Counted from the first letter of the stretch, positions 27,566-52,450 are shown. The stretch: 64,000 nt of DNA from Polyangiales bacterium (GCA_044224525.1 JBGAKI010000002.1:20846-84845); one strand, 5' to 3'. The notes: generated by a model from the sequence alone, not told the origin. Made by a program: numbers and translations.

Positions 27566-27648
27566 GGTGACATGCACTTTAGTGCGTGTCACCCATTCTG
27601 TGAGTTACCTCAAATCCAGAGGTGACACGCACTAAAGTGCATGTCACC
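27566..27648. repeat. Inverted pair of a 28-bp near-palindromic element (ggtgacatgcactttagtgcgtgtcacc)
   Basis: Copy A at 27566-27593 and its exact reverse complement at 27621-27648, separated by 27 nt. A third copy lies at 52423-52450. Confidence 0.9.
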
Positions 27649-27707
27649 GTGAAGTGCATGTCACCGTGAAGTGCATGTCACCGTGAAGTGCATGTCACCG
27701 TAAAGTG
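27632..27707. repeat. Tandem repeat of about 4.5 x 17 bp (gtgaagtgcatgtcacc), derived from one half of the 28-bp element
   Basis: Read directly. Units at 27632, 27649, 27666 and 27683, plus a partial unit that runs up to the stop codon of the convergent gene at 27708. Confidence 0.9.
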
Positions 27708-30284: not shown

Positions 30285-30674
30285 GTGAAGATTTGGATAA
30301 CGTTGTTTGGGGTCGCGCTTTTGGCGAGCGGGTGCCAATCGAAGATTGGTGACAGCTGCGGCTCGTCGATCAACTGCTCGTTTGCGGGTAACCGTATTTG
30401 CGACGGAACTCAACCGAGTGGATATTGTACGATTCGCGGTTGTGAGGCGAACTCGTGCCCGGGTGAAGCCACGTGTGTGAAGTTTAGACCCGACACCGAG
30501 CGACTTTCAAGCACCTGGTGCATGCGTAAATGTGGTGGCAACGGCGATTGCCGCGATGACAGCAGCGCCACGTCGCACTATCGCTGTGTGACCGGCGACG
30601 AGATGGGCACCAACGTTGCGCGCGTGATCGACAAGAACACGGCGCAAACGTTTTGTGCGTCGATGCCGCGCTAA
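30285..30674 (+). CDS. Small cysteine-rich lipoprotein
   Basis: Lipobox LLASGC. The mature part is rich in Cys (CGSSINC, CDG, CTIRGC, NSCPGEATC ...). Confidence 0.6.
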   Translation: MKIWITLFGVALLASGCQSKIGDSCGSSINCSFAGNRICDGTQPSGYCTIRGCEANSCPGEATCVKFRPDTERLSSTWCMRKCGGNGDCRDDSSATSHYRCVTGDEMGTNVARVIDKNTAQTFCASMPR

Positions 30675-30697
30675 ATCACCTGTATGGGTAGCAAGAA

Positions 30698-30842
30698 AGG
30701 TTGAGTTGAACAGGCTCGGGAAGAGGCTAAACCCGCTCACTTTTCGTTGCGCCGCTGCGCGACGAGAAAGAGCGCTACGCCTTTGGCTTCGCGAATCGTT
30801 CGCTACTGTTTAGCCCCTTCCCGCGCCTGCTCAACTCAACCT
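30698..30842. repeat. ~145-bp long-hairpin intergenic repeat, copy 1
   Basis: ~34-nt arms aggttgagttgaacaggctcgggaagaggctaaa / tttagccccttcccgcgcctgctcaactcaacct flank a core shared with 48878-49022 and 44560-44705. Confidence 0.85.
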
Positions 30843-30944
30843 CTCTTTATACGAGTTTCATGCAGTTCACTTGACCGTAGCGCGCGGTTGTTTTTTTCCC
30901 GGCAATCTTGCGCATGGCCTTATAATGCTGCGGGGCTTGTTTAA

Positions 30945-44507: not shown

Positions 44508-44559
44508 AGCCTAGACTATCGTACTCGGGCGGTCTTAGCCAGGCGGCCCTTATTGGAAT

Positions 44560-44705
44560 AACCGAGTGGGCACACTGAGTTCAGGAGGGCCAAACCCGCT
44601 CACTGGCCGGCGCGCCGCAGCGCGACGCGGAATAGCGCTAAGCCTTCGGCTCCGCGAATCGTTTGCCACGGTTTGCCCTGCCGAGCTCGATGTGCCCGCT
44701 CGGTT
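44560..44705. repeat. ~145-bp long-hairpin intergenic repeat, copy 2 (divergent arms)
   Basis: Arms aaccgagtgggcacactgag.. / ..ctcgatgtgcccgctcggtt. The core shares gctcac...cgc.gcgcgacg...agcgct..gccttcggctccgcgaatcgtt with copies 1 and 3. Followed by T7. Confidence 0.8.
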
Positions 44706-44708
44706 TTT

Positions 44709-46079
44709 TTATGGGAAGATACCGCGCTCGTTATAAACGGCGCCGATCGACTGCAAGGCCAGTGCATATGCGGCAAGACGCATGCTGCATTTTTTGTCGC
44801 GGGAGAAGTCACGCACGCGGCGATAGTTTTCGAGCATGTTCTTCTCGAGGCGCGTTTCGACTTCTTCGGCGTCCCAGGTTTCGCTGCGCTTGTTTTGCAC
44901 CCATTCGTAATAGCTCACTGTCACGCCGCCCGAGTTTGCCAGAATGTCGGGGATGACGTCGATGCCACGTTCAAGTAGAATCTTTTCGCCATCGGGCGTC
45001 ACGGGGCCATTGGCGCCTTCTGCAATCAAACGAACCTTGAGCACCTTGGCCTCTTCCGTGCCAACTTGGTTTTCCAGCGCGGCCGGTATAAAAATGTCGG
45101 CCTTGGTCGCAAAGAACTCCTCGCGCGTGATCTTGTCGCCAAAACCATATCCGTCGATCGAGCCGTTCTTTTTAACGTGTTCGCTAAGTTTATGTGCGTT
45201 CAAACCTTCGCCGCTTGCCAAGTAACCGGTGTGATCGCCCACAGCGACGACTGACACACCCAGCTTGGCAAGTAAAAGCGCAGCGTGCGAACCCACGTTA
45301 CCAAAACCTTGGATGATCGCGGTCTTGCCCTCGAGGTCGAACTTGTTGTCTTTGGCCCATTCGAGCACGCAGTGCACCAAGCCTTGGCTGGTGGCTTTTT
45401 CGCGACCACGCGAACCGCCCGACGACAAGGTTTTGCCGGTGACCACGCGACGGTTGGCTTGCTTTTCAACATGGCCGACGGTGTTCATGTAGGTGTCCAT
45501 GATCCACACCATCGTTTGCGCGTTGGTGCCAACATCGGGCGCGGGGATGTCGTATTCGGGGCCAATGTTTGAGCCGAGCGCGTGGGTGAAGCGGCGTGTC
45601 AAACGCATGAGCTCGTTTTGCGACAGTGAGCGCGGGTTTACCTTAATGCCTCCCTTACCGCCACCAAAAGGGATCTGCATGAGCGCACACTTCCAGGTCA
45701 TCATCGAGGCAAGCGCTTTGACGTCGTCGAGCGTGACCGTCTCGTGATAACGCAGGCCCCCTTTGAATGGCCCGAGCAAGTTGCTGTGTTGGACACGGTA
45801 ACCTTTGAACATGCGCAGCTCGCCGTTGTCCATGCGCACGGGGAAATGCACCATGATCTCGTTTTTCGGTTGCGATAGAATCGCCGCCACTTCGCTCGAC
45901 AAGTTGATCAGCTTTGCAGCTTGGTCGAGATAACCTTGAATCGCCGAGAAAAATGGGTTCTCTTCTTTTTTGGGTTGCTGGTCCATGATCTGACTCCCTG
46001 CGTTGTCGTTGCCTTGGCTGTGCTTCGCCGATGCTTTGGGGTGCTGACTTTTGTGTGCGGTTGGTTTAACGGTGCTCAC
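44709..46079 (-). CDS. gdhA: Glutamate dehydrogenase
   Basis: Glu/Leu/Phe/Val dehydrogenase signature IPFGGGKGGI and NAD(P) fold IQGFGNVGSHAA. The true start may be the internal MDQQPKK (45986). Confidence 0.93.
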   Translation of the reverse strand: MSTVKPTAHKSQHPKASAKHSQGNDNAGSQIMDQQPKKEENPFFSAIQGYLDQAAKLINLSSEVAAILSQPKNEIMVHFPVRMDNGELRMFKGYRVQHSNLLGPFKGGLRYHETVTLDDVKALASMMTWKCALMQIPFGGGKGGIKVNPRSLSQNELMRLTRRFTHALGSNIGPEYDIPAPDVGTNAQTMVWIMDTYMNTVGHVEKQANRRVVTGKTLSSGGSRGREKATSQGLVHCVLEWAKDNKFDLEGKTAIIQGFGNVGSHAALLLAKLGVSVVAVGDHTGYLASGEGLNAHKLSEHVKKNGSIDGYGFGDKITREEFFATKADIFIPAALENQVGTEEAKVLKVRLIAEGANGPVTPDGEKILLERGIDVIPDILANSGGVTVSYYEWVQNKRSETWDAEEVETRLEKNMLENYRRVRDFSRDKKCSMRLAAYALALQSIGAVYNERGIFP

Positions 46080-47895: not shown

Positions 47896-48864
47896 ATGGC
47901 GATGCGAGACCTTTACGAGGTGCTTGGTGTATCAAGAACGGCAAGCAAAGACGATATCAAGAAAGCTTACCGCACGCTTGCGCGTAAGCTGCATCCTGAC
48001 AAAAACCCCGGCAATAAGAAGGCCGAGGATCAGTTCAAAGAAGTCGCGTACGCAAACGAGGTGTTGAGCGACGACAAAAAGCGTACGCTTTATGATCAGT
48101 TTGGCGAGGCAGGTTTGAAAGAAGGCTTCAATGCCGACGCTTATCGCGCGTGGCAGCAAGCTGGCGCACGCGGGGGCGGTGGGCGTCAAGTTGATTGGAG
48201 CACATTCGAAGACATGTTTGGTGGCGCACGCGGACAAGCGGGCGGCCAATATGTGGATATCGGCGATTTGTTTGGCGATTTGGGCAGCATGTTTGGCGGC
48301 GGGCGGGCGCGCGGTGGACGCCAAGGTCGTAATGCACCGAAAGGCACAGATTTGACCGCGACGATCACGGTGCCGCTACGCGATGCGGTGCTTGGGGCTG
48401 AAAGAGAAATCGGCGTGCACCAAGGTGCAAAAACCAAAGAGCTGAAGGTAAAGATCCCGGCGGGCGTGGCCGATGGGGCTGTCATGCGCTTGGCGGGACA
48501 AGGCGCCAATGGCGGCGATTTGCTCTTGACTGTTAACGTGCAAACGCACCCATGGATCGAGCGTAAGGGGGCTGATTTGTACGCAGATCTGCCGATTAGC
48601 CTGAGCGAAGCTTGGTTTGGCGCGAAGGTGGAGCTGCCGACCTTCCATGGCAACTTGTCGCTTAAGATCCCGCCGCTGACGCAAAGCGGGGCAAAATTGC
48701 GATTGCGCGCAAAAGGGGTGCATAAGCGTGATGGTTCGAGCGGCGATTTGATTGTGCGGGTGCTTGTGCAGATCCCCAAAGAGGCGCAAGAGGGTGTGAC
48801 GCCGCTGATGGAGAAGATTAAAACTTTGGATGTTGCAGACCCGCGTAAGGACCTGATCTTGTAA
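47896..48864 (+). CDS. cbpA: J-domain co-chaperone, CbpA-like (no zinc finger)
   Basis: [34 protein letters not shown], a G-rich linker, then DnaJ C-terminal domains without CxxCxGxG. Confidence 0.85.
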
Positions 48865-48877
48865 TGGAGCAGCAAAG

Positions 48878-49022
48878 AAGTTTGTGTGAGCGGGCTCGAG
48901 AAGGGGCTAAACCTGCTCACTTTTCGTTGCGCCGCTGCGCGACGAGAAAGAGCACTGCGCCTTCGGCTCCGCGACTCGTTCGCTACTTTTTAGCCCCTTC
49001 TCGAGCCTGCTCACACAAACTT
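48878..49022. repeat. ~145-bp long-hairpin intergenic repeat, copy 3
   Basis: 34-nt arms aagtttgtgtgagcgggctcgagaaggggctaaa / tttagccccttctcgagcctgctcacacaaactt, with a single G-T pair. The core is nearly identical to copy 1. Confidence 0.9.
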
Positions 49023-49082
49023 AACCTTGATTTATTGGCGGCAGGGGACACGTTTCACGTGAAATAACATGTGGTCGACACA

Positions 49083-50249
49083 ATGAGTTCGTTTGATAAA
49101 ACCGTGCGCGCAAAGCTCGATGCGTTGATGGCTGCGAACGCACTTAGGACGGAACGGGTGCTTGCGGCGGCCGATGGGGCGTTTGTAGAGGTTGGCGGCA
49201 AACGGCTATTGAGCCTGGCCTCGAATAACTATTTGGGGCTTAGCCAAAATACGGAGCTTAGGGCTGCGGCAATACAAGCGCTTGATCAGTGGGGCGTGGG
49301 AAGCGGGGGTTCGCGGCTGGTCTGCGGCACCACAAACGCACATCGCCAATGTGAAGATGCGTTTGCGGCTTATGTTGAGCGGCCCGCGGCGATGTATTTT
49401 GCGAATGCATACGCGGCTAATTTGGGGGTAATTCCGGCTTTATTTGGCGAAGGTGATCTGATTTTGAGCGATGCGCTCAATCATGCGAGCCTGATCGACG
49501 CGTGCCGTCTTTCGCGGGCCGAAAAGAAAACCTATGCGCATTTGGACCTTGAGGCGGTGGAGAACATTTTGCGAGCGGAACGCGCCAGACACAAACATTG
49601 CCTGCTTGTAAGCGAAGCGGCGTTTTCGATGGATGGCGATTGCGCCGATATGTCGGCTTATGAGCGCTCGCCGATCGGCAGGAGGCCATGATGATCGATG
49701 AAGCGTATTTCGATCGGCGTATTTGGACCCGGCGGACGGGGGCTTTGCGCACAACATGGGGTCGAGCCCGATATTGGTGTGTACGGCCTTGGCAAAGCAT
49801 TTGGACTTTTTGGGGCGTTTGTAAGCGCAAGCGATGAAACCATTCGGCTGCTGCGCAGCAGCGCCCGCGCGTACATTTATACGACCGCGGCACCGGCTTT
49901 TTGGCTTGAGGTTGTCAAAGCGGGGATTGGGTTGGTCGAACGCGCGGATGCGGCTCGAGCCACGGTGATGGCACACGCCGAACGCCTGCGAAGCGGCCTG
50001 CAGAGGGCAGGGTTGCACGTGAAACCAGGTACAGCACCGATTATTCCTTTAATTATAGGTACTAACGACGCCAGTTTGAAAATCGCGGCACTTTGCGCAG
50101 AAAAGGGGCTTTTTGTGCAGGCGATTCGCCCGCCCACGGTGCCCGAAGGAACAAGTCGGTTGCGCCTCGTGCCGACCGCAGCGCACACAAGCCAAGACAT
50201 CGAACACGCGCTAAGCTTGCTCATTGAAGCATGTCGCGCGCAAAGATAA
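49083..50249 (+). pseudogene. bioF: 8-amino-7-oxononanoate synthase (BioF), interrupted by in-frame TGA TGA caused by two compensating 1-nt indels
   Basis: ORFs 49071..49691 and 49698..50249 share one frame and together are collinear with BioF. The conserved ...LADRQEAMMIDEAY segment is readable only in another frame, between about 49665 and 49709. Confidence 0.8.
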
Positions 50250-52225: not shown

Positions 52226-52299
<74 letters not shown>

Positions 52300-52308
52300 C
52301 TGATTGTG

Positions 52309-52403
52309 GTCCACGTACAGTTGTGCGTGGACCAGTTGATCATAGTCCACGTACGGTTGTGCGTGGACTAATCATTCTAGTCCACGTACGGTTGTGCGTG
52401 GAC
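52309..52403. repeat. Three copies of a 24-nt hairpin repeat (gtccacgtacRgttgtgcgtggac), 35-36 bp apart
   Basis: Copies at 52309-52332, 52345-52368 and 52380-52403. Each forms a 10-bp stem (one G-T pair) with a 4-nt loop, and the array starts 10 nt after tRNA-Ala. Confidence 0.9.
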
Positions 52404-52422
52404 CAGTGATTCTGGGAAAACC

Positions 52423-52450
52423 GGTGACATGCACTTTAGTGCGTGTCACC
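52423..52450. repeat. Third copy of the 28-bp near-palindromic element
   Basis: ggtgacatgcactttagtgcgtgtcacc is identical to 27566-27593. It ends 15 nt before the serC ATG. Confidence 0.9.

What the first reader, a model, noticed from the sequence alone, without database searches (positions are those of the whole stretch)
30698..30842. Dispersed ~145-bp long-hairpin repeat family whose arms covary between copies
There are three intergenic copies, at 30698-30842, 44560-44705 and 48878-49022.
- **Shared core.** Copies 1 and 3 share an almost identical ~75-nt core (gctcacttttcgttgcgccgctgcgcgacgagaaagagc...gcctt[ct]ggct.cgcga.tcgttcgctac). The flanking ~34-nt arms are reverse complements of each other.
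- **Covarying arms.** The distal arm sequence differs between copies, but each copy keeps its own left/right complementarity. Copy 1 has ttgagttga...tcaactcaa, copy 3 has tttgtgtga...tcacacaaa, and copy 2 has gagtgggcaca...tgtgcccgctc. This is what selection or repair on a hairpin would produce. Simple MITE copying would give identical TIRs.
- **Core substructure.** The core holds small hairpins: gcgc-cgcw-gcgc, gcc-ttcg-ggc and gcga-atcgt-tcgc.
- **Location.** All copies sit in short spacers between co-directional genes (lipoprotein>permease, cbpA-like>bioF, gdhA>omp85-like), in both orientations relative to transcription. This resembles ERIC/BIME/Correia-type elements.
- **Other points.** No transposase is nearby. 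The mismatches do not point consistently to one RNA strand.
Basis: seen in the sequence. Interest (0 to 1): 0.7.

Follow-up and report, generated by a model that had tools for sequence, protein, structure and literature searches.

The report
Three-copy long-hairpin intergenic repeat family
Three copies of a previously undescribed ~145-base foldback repeat sit just after stop codons in an uncultured myxobacterial (Polyangia) genome; it is another ERIC/Correia-like intergenic repeat, but its centre is conserved while its long stem changes sequence and stays paired.

Summary
Copies at 30698-30842, 44560-44705 and 48878-49022 each consist of a 35/36-nt arm, a 75-nt core with no indels, and the complementary arm. 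They fold far better than shuffled sequence.

- **Covariation.** It is real for the long stem. 22 of 35 pairs change on both sides and 93% of cells are paired. Copies 1 and 3 differ by six fully compensated positions. The outer ~26 bp of copy 2 are unrelated in sequence but still self-complementary.
- **Core hairpins.** The small hairpins in the core are not supported by covariation.
- **Searches.** I found no Rfam match, no transposase in the window, and no further copy in any genome, metagenome, viral, plasmid, phage, E. coli or protein collection searched.
- **Host.** It is a singleton Polyangia MAG contig. Syntenic loci of its nearest, distant relatives lack the element.
- **Classification.** Classical MITE features (shared terminal repeats, target duplications) are not met.

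Best reading: a lineage-restricted, non-autonomous foldback repeat that is co-transcribed in 3' UTRs or intercistronic spacers. Its arms are kept complementary by template-switch homogenisation or by selection for structure. Three copies cannot separate these two. It is a new family of a known kind and of moderate interest.

The parts
30698..30842 (+). Copy 1. Left arm 30698-30732, 75-nt core 30733-30807, right arm 30808-30842. It starts 24 nt after the stop codon of a lipoprotein ORF (30285-30674) and is oriented with transcription.
   Evidence: Arms are 32/35 complementary and the RNA fold z-score is -11.9.
30681..30697 (+). 17-nt left tail (TGTATGGGTAGCAAGAA) shared with copy 3 (48860-48877). 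In copy 1 its inner part also pairs imperfectly with 30843-30852, giving 45-nt arms at 87% complementarity.
44560..44705 (+). Copy 2, the divergent copy. Left arm 44560-44595 with a bulged C, 75-nt core 44596-44670, right arm 44671-44705. It starts 3 nt after the gdhA stop codon (44709-44711, minus strand), so it is inverted relative to local transcription.
   Evidence: Arms are 28/35 complementary. The outer 26 bp are unrelated to those of c1/c3.
48878..49022 (+). Copy 3. Left arm 48878-48912, 75-nt core 48913-48987, right arm 48988-49022. It starts 14 nt after the stop codon of the CbpA/DnaJ-like gene, lies upstream of bioF, and is oriented with transcription.
   Evidence: Arms are 33/35 complementary and the RNA fold z-score is -14.2.
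48860..48877 (+). Left tail of copy 3 (TGTAATGGAGCAGCAAAG), homologous to the copy 1 tail. It contains the cbpA-like stop codon.
30872..30899 (+). Canonical terminator-like hairpin plus T7 run downstream of copy 1. This places copy 1 inside the 3' UTR of the lipoprotein gene, so copy 1 is not itself the terminator.

Best explanation
This is a lineage-restricted, non-autonomous foldback repeat of an uncultured Polyangia (Myxococcota) bacterium, of the same general kind as ERIC, Correia and REPIN elements.

**The unit.** It is about 145 nt, or about 162 nt with a 5' tail in c1 and c3. A 75-nt sequence-conserved centre is closed by a ~35-bp stem whose sequence is free to change.

**Spread (inferred).** Copies were dispersed to positions just 3' of stop codons. 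The process does not rely on conserved terminal sequences, so it is probably not a classical DDE cut-and-paste MITE. A hairpin or ssDNA-dependent route or a recombinational route is more plausible.

**Arm complementarity (inferred).** The arms are kept complementary, or made so again, at the DNA level. The likely mechanism is intramolecular template switching between imperfect inverted-repeat arms, also called quasipalindrome correction. It copies one arm onto the other and yields multi-nucleotide compensated changes in one step.

**Effect on expression (by analogy, not shown).** Because the copies lie inside transcription units, each is transcribed as a ~35-bp double-stranded RNA stem in either orientation. 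It would act as a 3' exonuclease barrier and/or an RNase III target that uncouples the upstream gene from the downstream gene.

**Shown:** the anatomy, the copy number in the window, the covariation of the long stem, the absence of the element elsewhere, and the genomic context.
For: **Anatomy and covariation**
- Three copies share an indel-free 75-nt core and arms of equal length.
- They form extreme hairpins under both RNA and DNA parameters.
- 22 of 35 stem pairs change on both sides; 0/500 shuffles reach the observed values and slid-register controls collapse.

**Against a classical MITE**
- The outermost arm sequence is the least conserved part: 15/52 positions differ between c1 and c3, against 8/93 for the inner stem plus core (Fisher p = 0.002). 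Against c2, 39-42/52 differ.
- No adjacent direct duplications are present.
- No transposase, RAYT, integrase or reverse transcriptase is in the window.

**For DNA-level templating**
- Compensated positions 6-9 form one contiguous block.
- One-sided mismatches (c1 3, c3 2, about 7% summed over the arms) are close to the c1-c3 core divergence of 8%.
- Mismatches do not favour one RNA strand, and the element occurs in both orientations relative to transcription.
- Template switching is documented to homogenise and extend inverted-repeat arms and to create compensated hairpin changes (PMC7202029, PMC8794818, PMC13100816).

**For lineage-specific gain**
- Synteny with Polyangia MAGs is conserved, but cbpA and bioF abut in L006 and no comparable hairpin is present in L006, L007 or L025.

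**For transcription as a UTR**
- Each copy starts 3-24 nt after a stop codon.
- A separate terminator follows c1.

**Comparable elements**
- Compensatory changes in REPIN hairpins (PMC3116915).
- RNase III cleavage or protection of Correia hairpins (PMC2649163).
- Other Polyangia loci carry their own unrelated foldback repeats, so the kind is common in this clade.
Against: - Only three copies are available, all within 18.3 kb. No transposition footprint, empty-site polymorphism in a close relative, or mobilising enzyme is known.
- The nearest relatives are very distant (about 40-70% amino-acid identity for neighbouring proteins), so their empty junctions are weak evidence for insertion.
- The equal arm length (35/35/36) and the exact 75-nt core fit a selected unit better than independent inverted-repeat expansion does.
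- All four single-base c1-c3 differences in the core fall in predicted unpaired positions, and a fifth and sixth form a compensated pair at the base of H1. This hints at selection on structure rather than pure neutrality.
- There is no expression or processing data at all.
Confidence: 0.45

Rival explanations
1. It is a selected structured RNA module, for example a 3' UTR or intercistronic stabiliser, or an RNase III processing site that may release the 75-nt core. Under this reading the core sequence and the stem pairing are maintained by purifying selection and ordinary compensatory evolution.
For: - The conservation pattern is the one typical of functional RNAs: the core is conserved in sequence, while the stem is conserved only in pairing and length.
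- All c1-c3 core differences lie in predicted loops or junctions, or are compensated.
- Arm lengths are identical and the core has no indels.
- All three copies lie immediately after stop codons inside apparent operons.
Against: - Copy 2 is inverted relative to transcription, so its core would be read as the complement.
- H1 is disrupted at five pairs in c2 without compensation, and the c2 core folds no better than shuffled sequence.
- Mismatches are not biased towards G-U on the transcribed strand.
- There is no Rfam match, even at permissive E-values.
- There is no homologue at syntenic sites or anywhere in 1.4 Mb of Polyangia DNA.
Confidence: 0.25
2. A ~95-nt core element with short inner repeats (GGGCYAAAC/GTTTRGCCC) inserted into the centre of pre-existing host palindromes such as REP-like or terminator hairpins. 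Under this reading the locus-specific outer arms are target DNA and not part of the element.
For: - Homology between c2 and c1/c3 stops about 9-10 bp into the stem.
- The genome carries other palindromic repeat families.
- Hairpin-targeting insertion is a known phenomenon, for example IS elements inserting into REPs (own knowledge, not tested here).
Against: - The outer arms have the same length in all three copies, and c1 and c3 outer arms are homologous to each other at 20/26 positions.
- No empty version of any outer palindrome occurs in the window.
- c1 has its own separate terminator downstream.
- The T-run after c2 is the complement of the ancestral A-run that follows the gdhA stop codon, also seen in L006. 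It is not a terminator tail.
Confidence: 0.1
3. It is a classical MITE, or a PATE/REPIN-type element mobilised in trans by a transposase encoded elsewhere in the genome. Copies 1/3 and copy 2 would belong to different subfamilies whose ends co-evolved with their enzymes.
For: - The size, foldback shape, intergenic location and multicopy nature all fit.
- A TTTATTGG-like motif occurs in direct orientation in all six 25-nt flanks (null p = 0.003). This could be a preferred target or cleavage motif like those of IS200/IS605-type elements.
- c1 and c3 share a 5' tail, which is reminiscent of the tailed hairpin intermediate proposed for REPINs (PMC3116915).
Against: - The terminal sequences are the least conserved part.
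- The flank motif lies at variable distance (3-11 nt) from the hairpin, and left and right copies are not identical within a locus. At c2 the right-hand motif is the native end of gdhA.
- No transposase is in the window.
- The core is not built from two inverted REP-like units.
Confidence: 0.15

Closest known systems
ERIC / IRU (enterobacterial repetitive intergenic consensus)
   Same: An imperfect palindrome of about 127-150 nt, located in transcribed intergenic regions in either orientation, with a conserved central region and no associated transposase. ERIC is proposed to affect mRNA stability. The ERIC properties are from my own knowledge.
   Different: No sequence similarity: blastn against 5,426 E. 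coli genomes found nothing. The host phylum is different. Here the stem is much longer and nearly perfect, and its sequence is replaced between copies.
Correia repeat-enclosed elements (Neisseria)
   Same: A foldback of about 100-155 nt with an inverted repeat and a conserved core, co-transcribed with neighbouring genes. The RNA hairpin is bound, cleaved or protected by RNase III (PMC2649163).
   Different: Correia elements have conserved 26-bp terminal repeats, a TA target duplication and an IHF site (own knowledge). Here the termini are variable, no TA or other duplication is present, and there is no sequence similarity.
REPINs (REP doublets forming hairpins) with RAYT transposases
   Same: Long hairpin units in extragenic space. 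Compensatory changes on the two sides of the hairpin are common, and length and pairing rather than sequence are constrained in part of the unit (PMC3116915).
   Different: In REPINs the conserved 16-mers/REPs are at the two ends and the spacer is variable. Here the centre is conserved and the ends are variable. No RAYT is in the window, and the core is not two inverted REPs.
Quasipalindrome template-switch mutation / inverted-repeat homogenisation
   Same: It explains one-step, multi-nucleotide compensated changes and the outward extension of arms, as in the 45-nt imperfect arms of copy 1 (PMC7202029, PMC8794818, PMC13100816).
   Different: It is a mutational mechanism and not an element family. 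It does not explain dispersal or the conserved core.

Membership tests
Classical MITE (DDE transposon derivative) | Terminal inverted repeats are conserved between copies, because the transposase recognises them. | tested here: not met
   The outer 26 bp of the arms differ at 39/52 (c1-c2) and 42/52 (c3-c2) positions. c1 and c3 differ at 6 compensated positions. The termini are the least conserved part.
Classical MITE (DDE transposon derivative) | A target-site duplication directly flanks the element. | tested here: not met
   No identical direct repeats abut any of the hairpins. Only a degenerate TTTATTGG-like motif is present, at a variable 3-11 nt distance.
Classical MITE (DDE transposon derivative) | A cognate autonomous IS with matching ends exists in the genome. 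| not testable with these tools
   No transposase is in the 64-kb window.
REPIN / REP-RAYT | Two inverted, highly conserved REP sequences at the ends, with a variable spacer between them. | tested here: not met
   The conservation pattern is the reverse: conserved centre, variable ends. The core is asymmetric (H1, then H2, then H3), not two inverted units.
REPIN / REP-RAYT | An associated single-copy RAYT (Y1 transposase) gene flanked by REPs. | not testable with these tools
   None is in the window, and the remainder of the genome is unavailable.
Integron attC site | R''/R' boxes (RYYYAAC ... GTTRRRY) at the outer ends, a variable centre, and a location in cassette arrays next to intI. | tested here: not met
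   The outer ends do not carry the boxes. The only similar strings (GGCTAAAC/GTTTAGCC) are at the inner end of the stem, and GTTTAGC violates GTTRRRY. The flanking genes are housekeeping genes in conserved synteny. No integrase is present.
Intrinsic (Rho-independent) terminator | A GC-rich hairpin immediately followed by a U-tract on the transcribed strand. | tested here: not met
   There is no U-tract after c1 or c3, and a separate terminator follows c1. The T7 run after c2 is on the non-transcribed strand and overlaps the gdhA stop codon.
Any Rfam 15 RNA family | A covariance-model match at the gathering score. | tested here: not met
   The only hit in the window is a tRNA. Permissive scans of the three loci give only sub-threshold chance hits.
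ERIC/Correia-like structured intergenic repeat (functional analogy only) | A dispersed foldback of about 100-150 nt in transcribed intergenic DNA, in either orientation, without coding capacity of its own. | tested here: met
   Transcription itself is inferred from position, not measured.

The most novel reading that the evidence does not exclude
The element may represent a class of structure-defined bacterial repeat in which only a ~95-nt centre is inherited as sequence. The ~26-bp outer stem would be re-templated at each locus, with one arm copied from the other or from flanking DNA by fold-back or template-switch synthesis. Propagation or function would then depend on a long perfect hairpin of fixed length and not on terminal sequence. 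This is either a new ssDNA-hairpin mobilisation mode or an RNase III-processed RNA module released from 3' UTRs.
Probability: 0.15. Interest if true: 0.7.

Novelty: new member of a known kind. Interest (0 to 1): 0.4.

Why it matters
Small foldback repeats shape operon expression and genome plasticity in well-studied bacteria, but they are essentially uncharted in Myxococcota. This family shows clearly a stem whose pairing and length are kept while its sequence turns over around a conserved centre. With a complete genome or close relatives, it would be a compact natural test of template-switch homogenisation against selection for RNA or DNA structure. It could also point to a mobilisation route that does not read terminal sequences. 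With three copies in one MAG contig, it remains a descriptive finding for now.

Tried and rejected
**Searches for more copies (all negative)**
- Two core patterns against GTDB species-representative genomes and JGI metagenomes gave 0 hits, 0 hits, and 2 chance hits.
- A viral-contig pattern scan gave 18 chance hits inside coding DNA.
- blastn against plasmids, phages and E. coli genomes found nothing.
- I searched the 5.8-billion-protein collection with the element's open frame, and then with all 18 frame translations concatenated. The aim was to catch spurious ORF calls on other copies. Both found nothing.
- nhmmer and covariance models over 1.4 Mb of Polyangia loci found nothing.

**Walking the source genome**
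- Only short Logan contigs of one run (SRR28480385) are retrievable.
- Two of them break inside the element. The 39-nt run shared by c1 and c3 fully explains those breaks, so they say nothing about copy number.

**Readings considered and rejected**
- **attC site:** the boxes are absent and the context is wrong.
- **Terminator:** there is no U-tract on the transcribed strand.
- **tRNA-like, Y RNA, 6S or ribozyme:** there is no Rfam signal.
- **Small protein gene:** a frame is open in all three copies, but there is no conserved start. It stops early in c1 when read from its ATG, and it is antisense to local transcription at c2.
- **Assembly artefact:** the three copies are diverged, lie inside a 104-kb contig, and sit at gene ends.
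- **Target-site duplication:** the TTTATTGG-like flank motif is not one. The left motifs of c1 and c3 resemble each other more than they resemble their own right motifs. At c2 the right-hand motif is native gdhA sequence.

**A weakened argument**
- The claim that arms evolve faster than the core between c1 and c3 is significant per position (p = 0.002). It weakens if the 4-nt block counts as one event.

Full report
**1. What is there**

Each consists of a left arm of 35 nt (36 in copy 2, because of one bulged C), a core of exactly 75 nt with no indels, and a right arm of 35 nt that is the reverse complement of the left arm. The coordinates are:

| Copy | Left arm | Core | Right arm |
|---|---|---|---|
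| c1 | 30698-30732 | 30733-30807 | 30808-30842 |
| c2 | 44560-44595 | 44596-44670 | 44671-44705 |
| c3 | 48878-48912 | 48913-48987 | 48988-49022 |

All three have the core in the same orientation on the + strand. nhmmer, short-word blastn and a covariance model of the core plus inner stem, run with filters off, find these three copies and nothing else in the 64 kb.

Folded as RNA, the + strands give -87.4, -80.1 and -96.0 kcal/mol for c1, c2 and c3, against shuffled means of -46 to -59. The z-scores are -11.9, -5.2 and -14.2, and the minus strands are similar. DNA parameters give the same structures. This is far beyond chance.

**2. The covariation claim**

- **Arm complementarity.** It is 32/35 in c1, 33/35 in c3 and 28/35 in c2.
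- **c1 against c3.** The arms differ at 11 pair positions. Six of them (2, 6, 7, 8, 9, 22) are exactly compensated on the other arm and five are one-sided. With arms mutating independently, six compensations never occurred in 200,000 simulations.
- **Formal pair count.** I built a model from c1+c3 and let it align c2. On that alignment the long helix has 35 pairs, 22 of them with changes on both sides, and 93% of cells paired. None of 500 shuffles reaches any of the five measures. Sliding the 3' partner by 1-3 columns drops pairing to 36-45%. This alignment is fitted to the structure, which favours pairing. The c1/c3 result does not depend on that, because their alignment is ungapped.
- **Qualification 1.** Homology between c2 and c1/c3 covers only the core and the inner ~9-10 bp of the stem (GGGCYAAAC/GTTTRGCCC). 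The outer 26 bp differ at 39/52 and 42/52 positions, which is what unrelated sequence gives. For c2 the stem has been replaced or saturated, not changed step by step.
- **Qualification 2.** Four of the six c1/c3 compensated positions are contiguous (GAGT to TGTG), which looks like one event.
- **Qualification 3.** The small core hairpins are not supported by covariation. H1 has one compensated pair (C-G to U-A at its base), but five pairs are broken in c2. H2 and H3 never vary. The c2 core folds no better than shuffles (z = +0.8, against -2.6 and -2.0 for c1 and c3).

**3. Context**

Pfam and NCBIfam scans give the following neighbours.

- **c1** starts 24 nt after the stop of a 129-aa ORF with a signal peptide and lipobox (LLASGC). 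It precedes two ABC permease genes. A canonical hairpin plus T7 terminator-like site lies 30 nt beyond c1 (30872-30899), so c1 sits inside that gene's 3' UTR.
- **c3** starts 14 nt after the stop of a CbpA/DnaJ-like gene and lies upstream of bioF.
- **c2** lies on the opposite strand's transcription unit. It starts 3 nt after the gdhA stop and is followed by an Omp85-family gene, so its core is inverted relative to transcription.
- **The T-run next to c2** is the complement of gdhA's stop codon and of an A-run that also follows gdhA in a relative (L006: CCG TGA AAAAGG). It is not a terminator tail.
- **Mobile-element genes.** No transposase, RAYT, integrase or reverse transcriptase occurs among about 50 ORFs across the window.

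**4. Whose genome, and is the element elsewhere?**

- **Source.** Every window protein I looked up is a singleton cluster from one NCBI contig of 104,465 bp. Identical short contigs come from one Logan run, SRR28480385.
- **Taxon.** GdhA is 72-74% identical to Polyangia/Sandaracinaceae MAGs. The gene order bioF-cbpA-uppS-cdsA-gdhA-omp85 and the genes beyond it are shared with them. The host is therefore an uncultured Polyangia (Myxococcota) bacterium with unusually low G+C (54%).
- **No other copy found.** The list of negative searches is:
  - two independent core patterns against 185,579 species-representative genomes and JGI metagenomes;
  - viral contigs;
  - plasmids, phages and E. coli genomes;
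  - translated-frame searches of 5.8 billion proteins;
  - nhmmer and covariance-model searches of 1.4 Mb of syntenic Polyangia DNA;
  - Rfam, including permissive scans.
- **Syntenic sites in relatives.** In the closest syntenic locus (L006) cbpA and bioF abut or overlap, and no comparable hairpin exists in L006, L007 or L025. This fits lineage-specific gain. These relatives are distant, however: neighbouring proteins are 40-70% identical.
- **Contig breaks.** Two Logan contigs break inside the element. The 39-nt run identical between c1 and c3 fully explains those breaks, so they carry no information on copy number.

**5. How it most likely works**

Three observations argue against a classical TIR-dependent MITE.

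- The termini are the least conserved part.
- There are no abutting target duplications.
- The conserved part is central.

Three observations argue for a DNA-level, strand-symmetric process keeping the arms complementary.

- The element occurs in both orientations relative to transcription.
- Arm mismatches are not biased towards G-U on either strand. The two c1 transitions would be wobbles only on the minus strand, the c3 one only on the plus strand, and c2 is mixed.
- The summed one-sided mismatches of c1 and c3 (5 in 140 arm nucleotides, about 7% summed over the two lineages) equal their core divergence (6/75, 8%). That is expected if each copy began with perfect arms and has since decayed neutrally.

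Intramolecular template switching between imperfect inverted repeats is documented to correct quasipalindromes, to homogenise and extend arms, and to generate multi-nucleotide compensated changes in one step (PMC7202029, PMC8794818, PMC13100816). It would account for the contiguous 4-nt compensated block and for the imperfect outward extension of the c1 arms to 45 nt.

Other features hint at selection on the folded unit.

- The arm lengths are equal.
- The core is exactly 75 nt in all copies.
- All four single c1-c3 core differences fall in predicted unpaired positions.

I therefore commit to this reading: a dispersed, non-autonomous foldback repeat whose stem is maintained mainly by templated arm homogenisation. 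When transcribed, it forms a ~35-bp dsRNA stem in 3' UTRs or intercistronic spacers. By analogy with Correia elements (RNase III cleavage or protection, PMC2649163) and ERIC/REP elements, it would act as a processing site or exonuclease barrier. The RNA effect and the mode of dispersal are inferred, not shown.

**6. Rivals**

- **(a) A selected structured RNA module.** This fits the conservation pattern. It fits poorly with the inverted c2, its broken H1 and the absence of any homologue elsewhere.
- **(b) A ~95-nt core inserted into pre-existing host palindromes.** This fits the homology boundary in c2. It does not fit the equal arm lengths, the related c1/c3 arms, or the lack of empty palindromes.
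- **(c) A MITE/PATE/REPIN-type element with trans-acting enzyme and subfamilies.** Supporting evidence:
  - A TTTATTGG-like motif occurs in all six flanks (null p = 0.003).
  - c1 and c3 share a 17-nt 5' tail.

  Against it:
  - The motif lies at variable distance from the hairpin.
  - It is not identical within a locus.
  - At c2 it is native gdhA sequence.

**7. Comparison and novelty**

Functionally and architecturally the closest known elements are ERIC, Correia elements and REPINs. REPINs also show compensatory changes in their hairpins (PMC3116915). There, however, the conserved REPs are at the ends and the spacer varies, which is the reverse of this element.

Membership in MITE, REPIN, attC, terminator or any Rfam family was tested where possible and not met. 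What holds is the analogy to ERIC/Correia-type structured intergenic repeats.

Other Polyangia loci carry their own unrelated foldback repeats, including a classical MITE pair with conserved TIRs in L063 and a foldback directly after gdhA in L052. The kind is therefore common in the clade.

Verdict: a new family of a known kind, with an unusual conserved-centre, variable-stem layout. Interest is moderate and limited by having only three copies.

Noticed in passing
window 27566-27593, 27621-27648, 52423-52450; tandem array 27635-27702: A second repeat family. It is a 28-nt perfect or near-perfect palindrome, GGTGACAYGCACTWWAGTGCRTGTCACC, at three intergenic sites. At the first site there are also four tandem 17-nt units (AAGTGCATGTCACCGTG). 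The half-site GGTGACATGCAC occurs 10 times with up to 1 mismatch, against 0.3 expected. It looks REP-like or like an operator or iteron array.
   Followed up: partly
window 52307-52412: Three tandem 35/36-nt units, each with the palindromic core GTCCACGTACRGTTGTGCGTGGAC. They lie directly 3' of tRNA-Ala(CGC) (52227-52300) and are followed by a copy of the 28-nt palindrome.
   Followed up: partly
window 49071-50249: bioF is split into two ORFs of 206 and 183 aa by two consecutive in-frame stop codons at 49689-49694 (...GRRP**SMK...). This could be a pseudogene, a frameshift or assembly error, or a local error in the MAG.
   Followed up: partly
25-nt flanks of the three hairpins (30673-30697, 30843-30867, 44536-44560, 44705-44729, 48853-48877, 49023-49047): All six flanks contain a TTTATTGG-like octamer with up to 2 mismatches, in direct orientation, 3-11 nt from the hairpin. 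The null probability from random intergenic segments is 0.003. It might be a target or cleavage motif, or simply stop-codon-rich context. At c2 the right-hand copy is the native gdhA end.
   Followed up: partly
L052 11328-11498; L011 5611-5781; L020 6775-6939; L042 3371-3535; L049 16846-16932: Other Polyangia MAGs carry long foldbacks with arms of about 27-37 nt and loops of about 30-110 nt. Their arms are built from short tandem sub-repeats, for example (GTCTAGA)n or (CACGGAGT)n. The L052 foldback lies directly after gdhA, the same position as copy 2 here, but is unrelated in sequence.
   Followed up: no
L063 9593-9743, 13709-13835, 15083-15219: A 9-Mb Polyangiales chromosome has three foldback elements within 6 kb. 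Two share conserved terminal repeats (TTTGGGGACAGGGTCAGATCTGA...) but have different centres. This is the classical MITE pattern and the opposite of the window's family.
   Followed up: no
window 30872-30899: A canonical terminator-like hairpin with a T7 run, 30 nt downstream of copy 1.
   Followed up: yes
whole window: The host looks like a divergent Polyangia lineage with low G+C (54%). Every protein checked is a singleton at 90% identity in a 15-billion-protein collection.
   Followed up: partly
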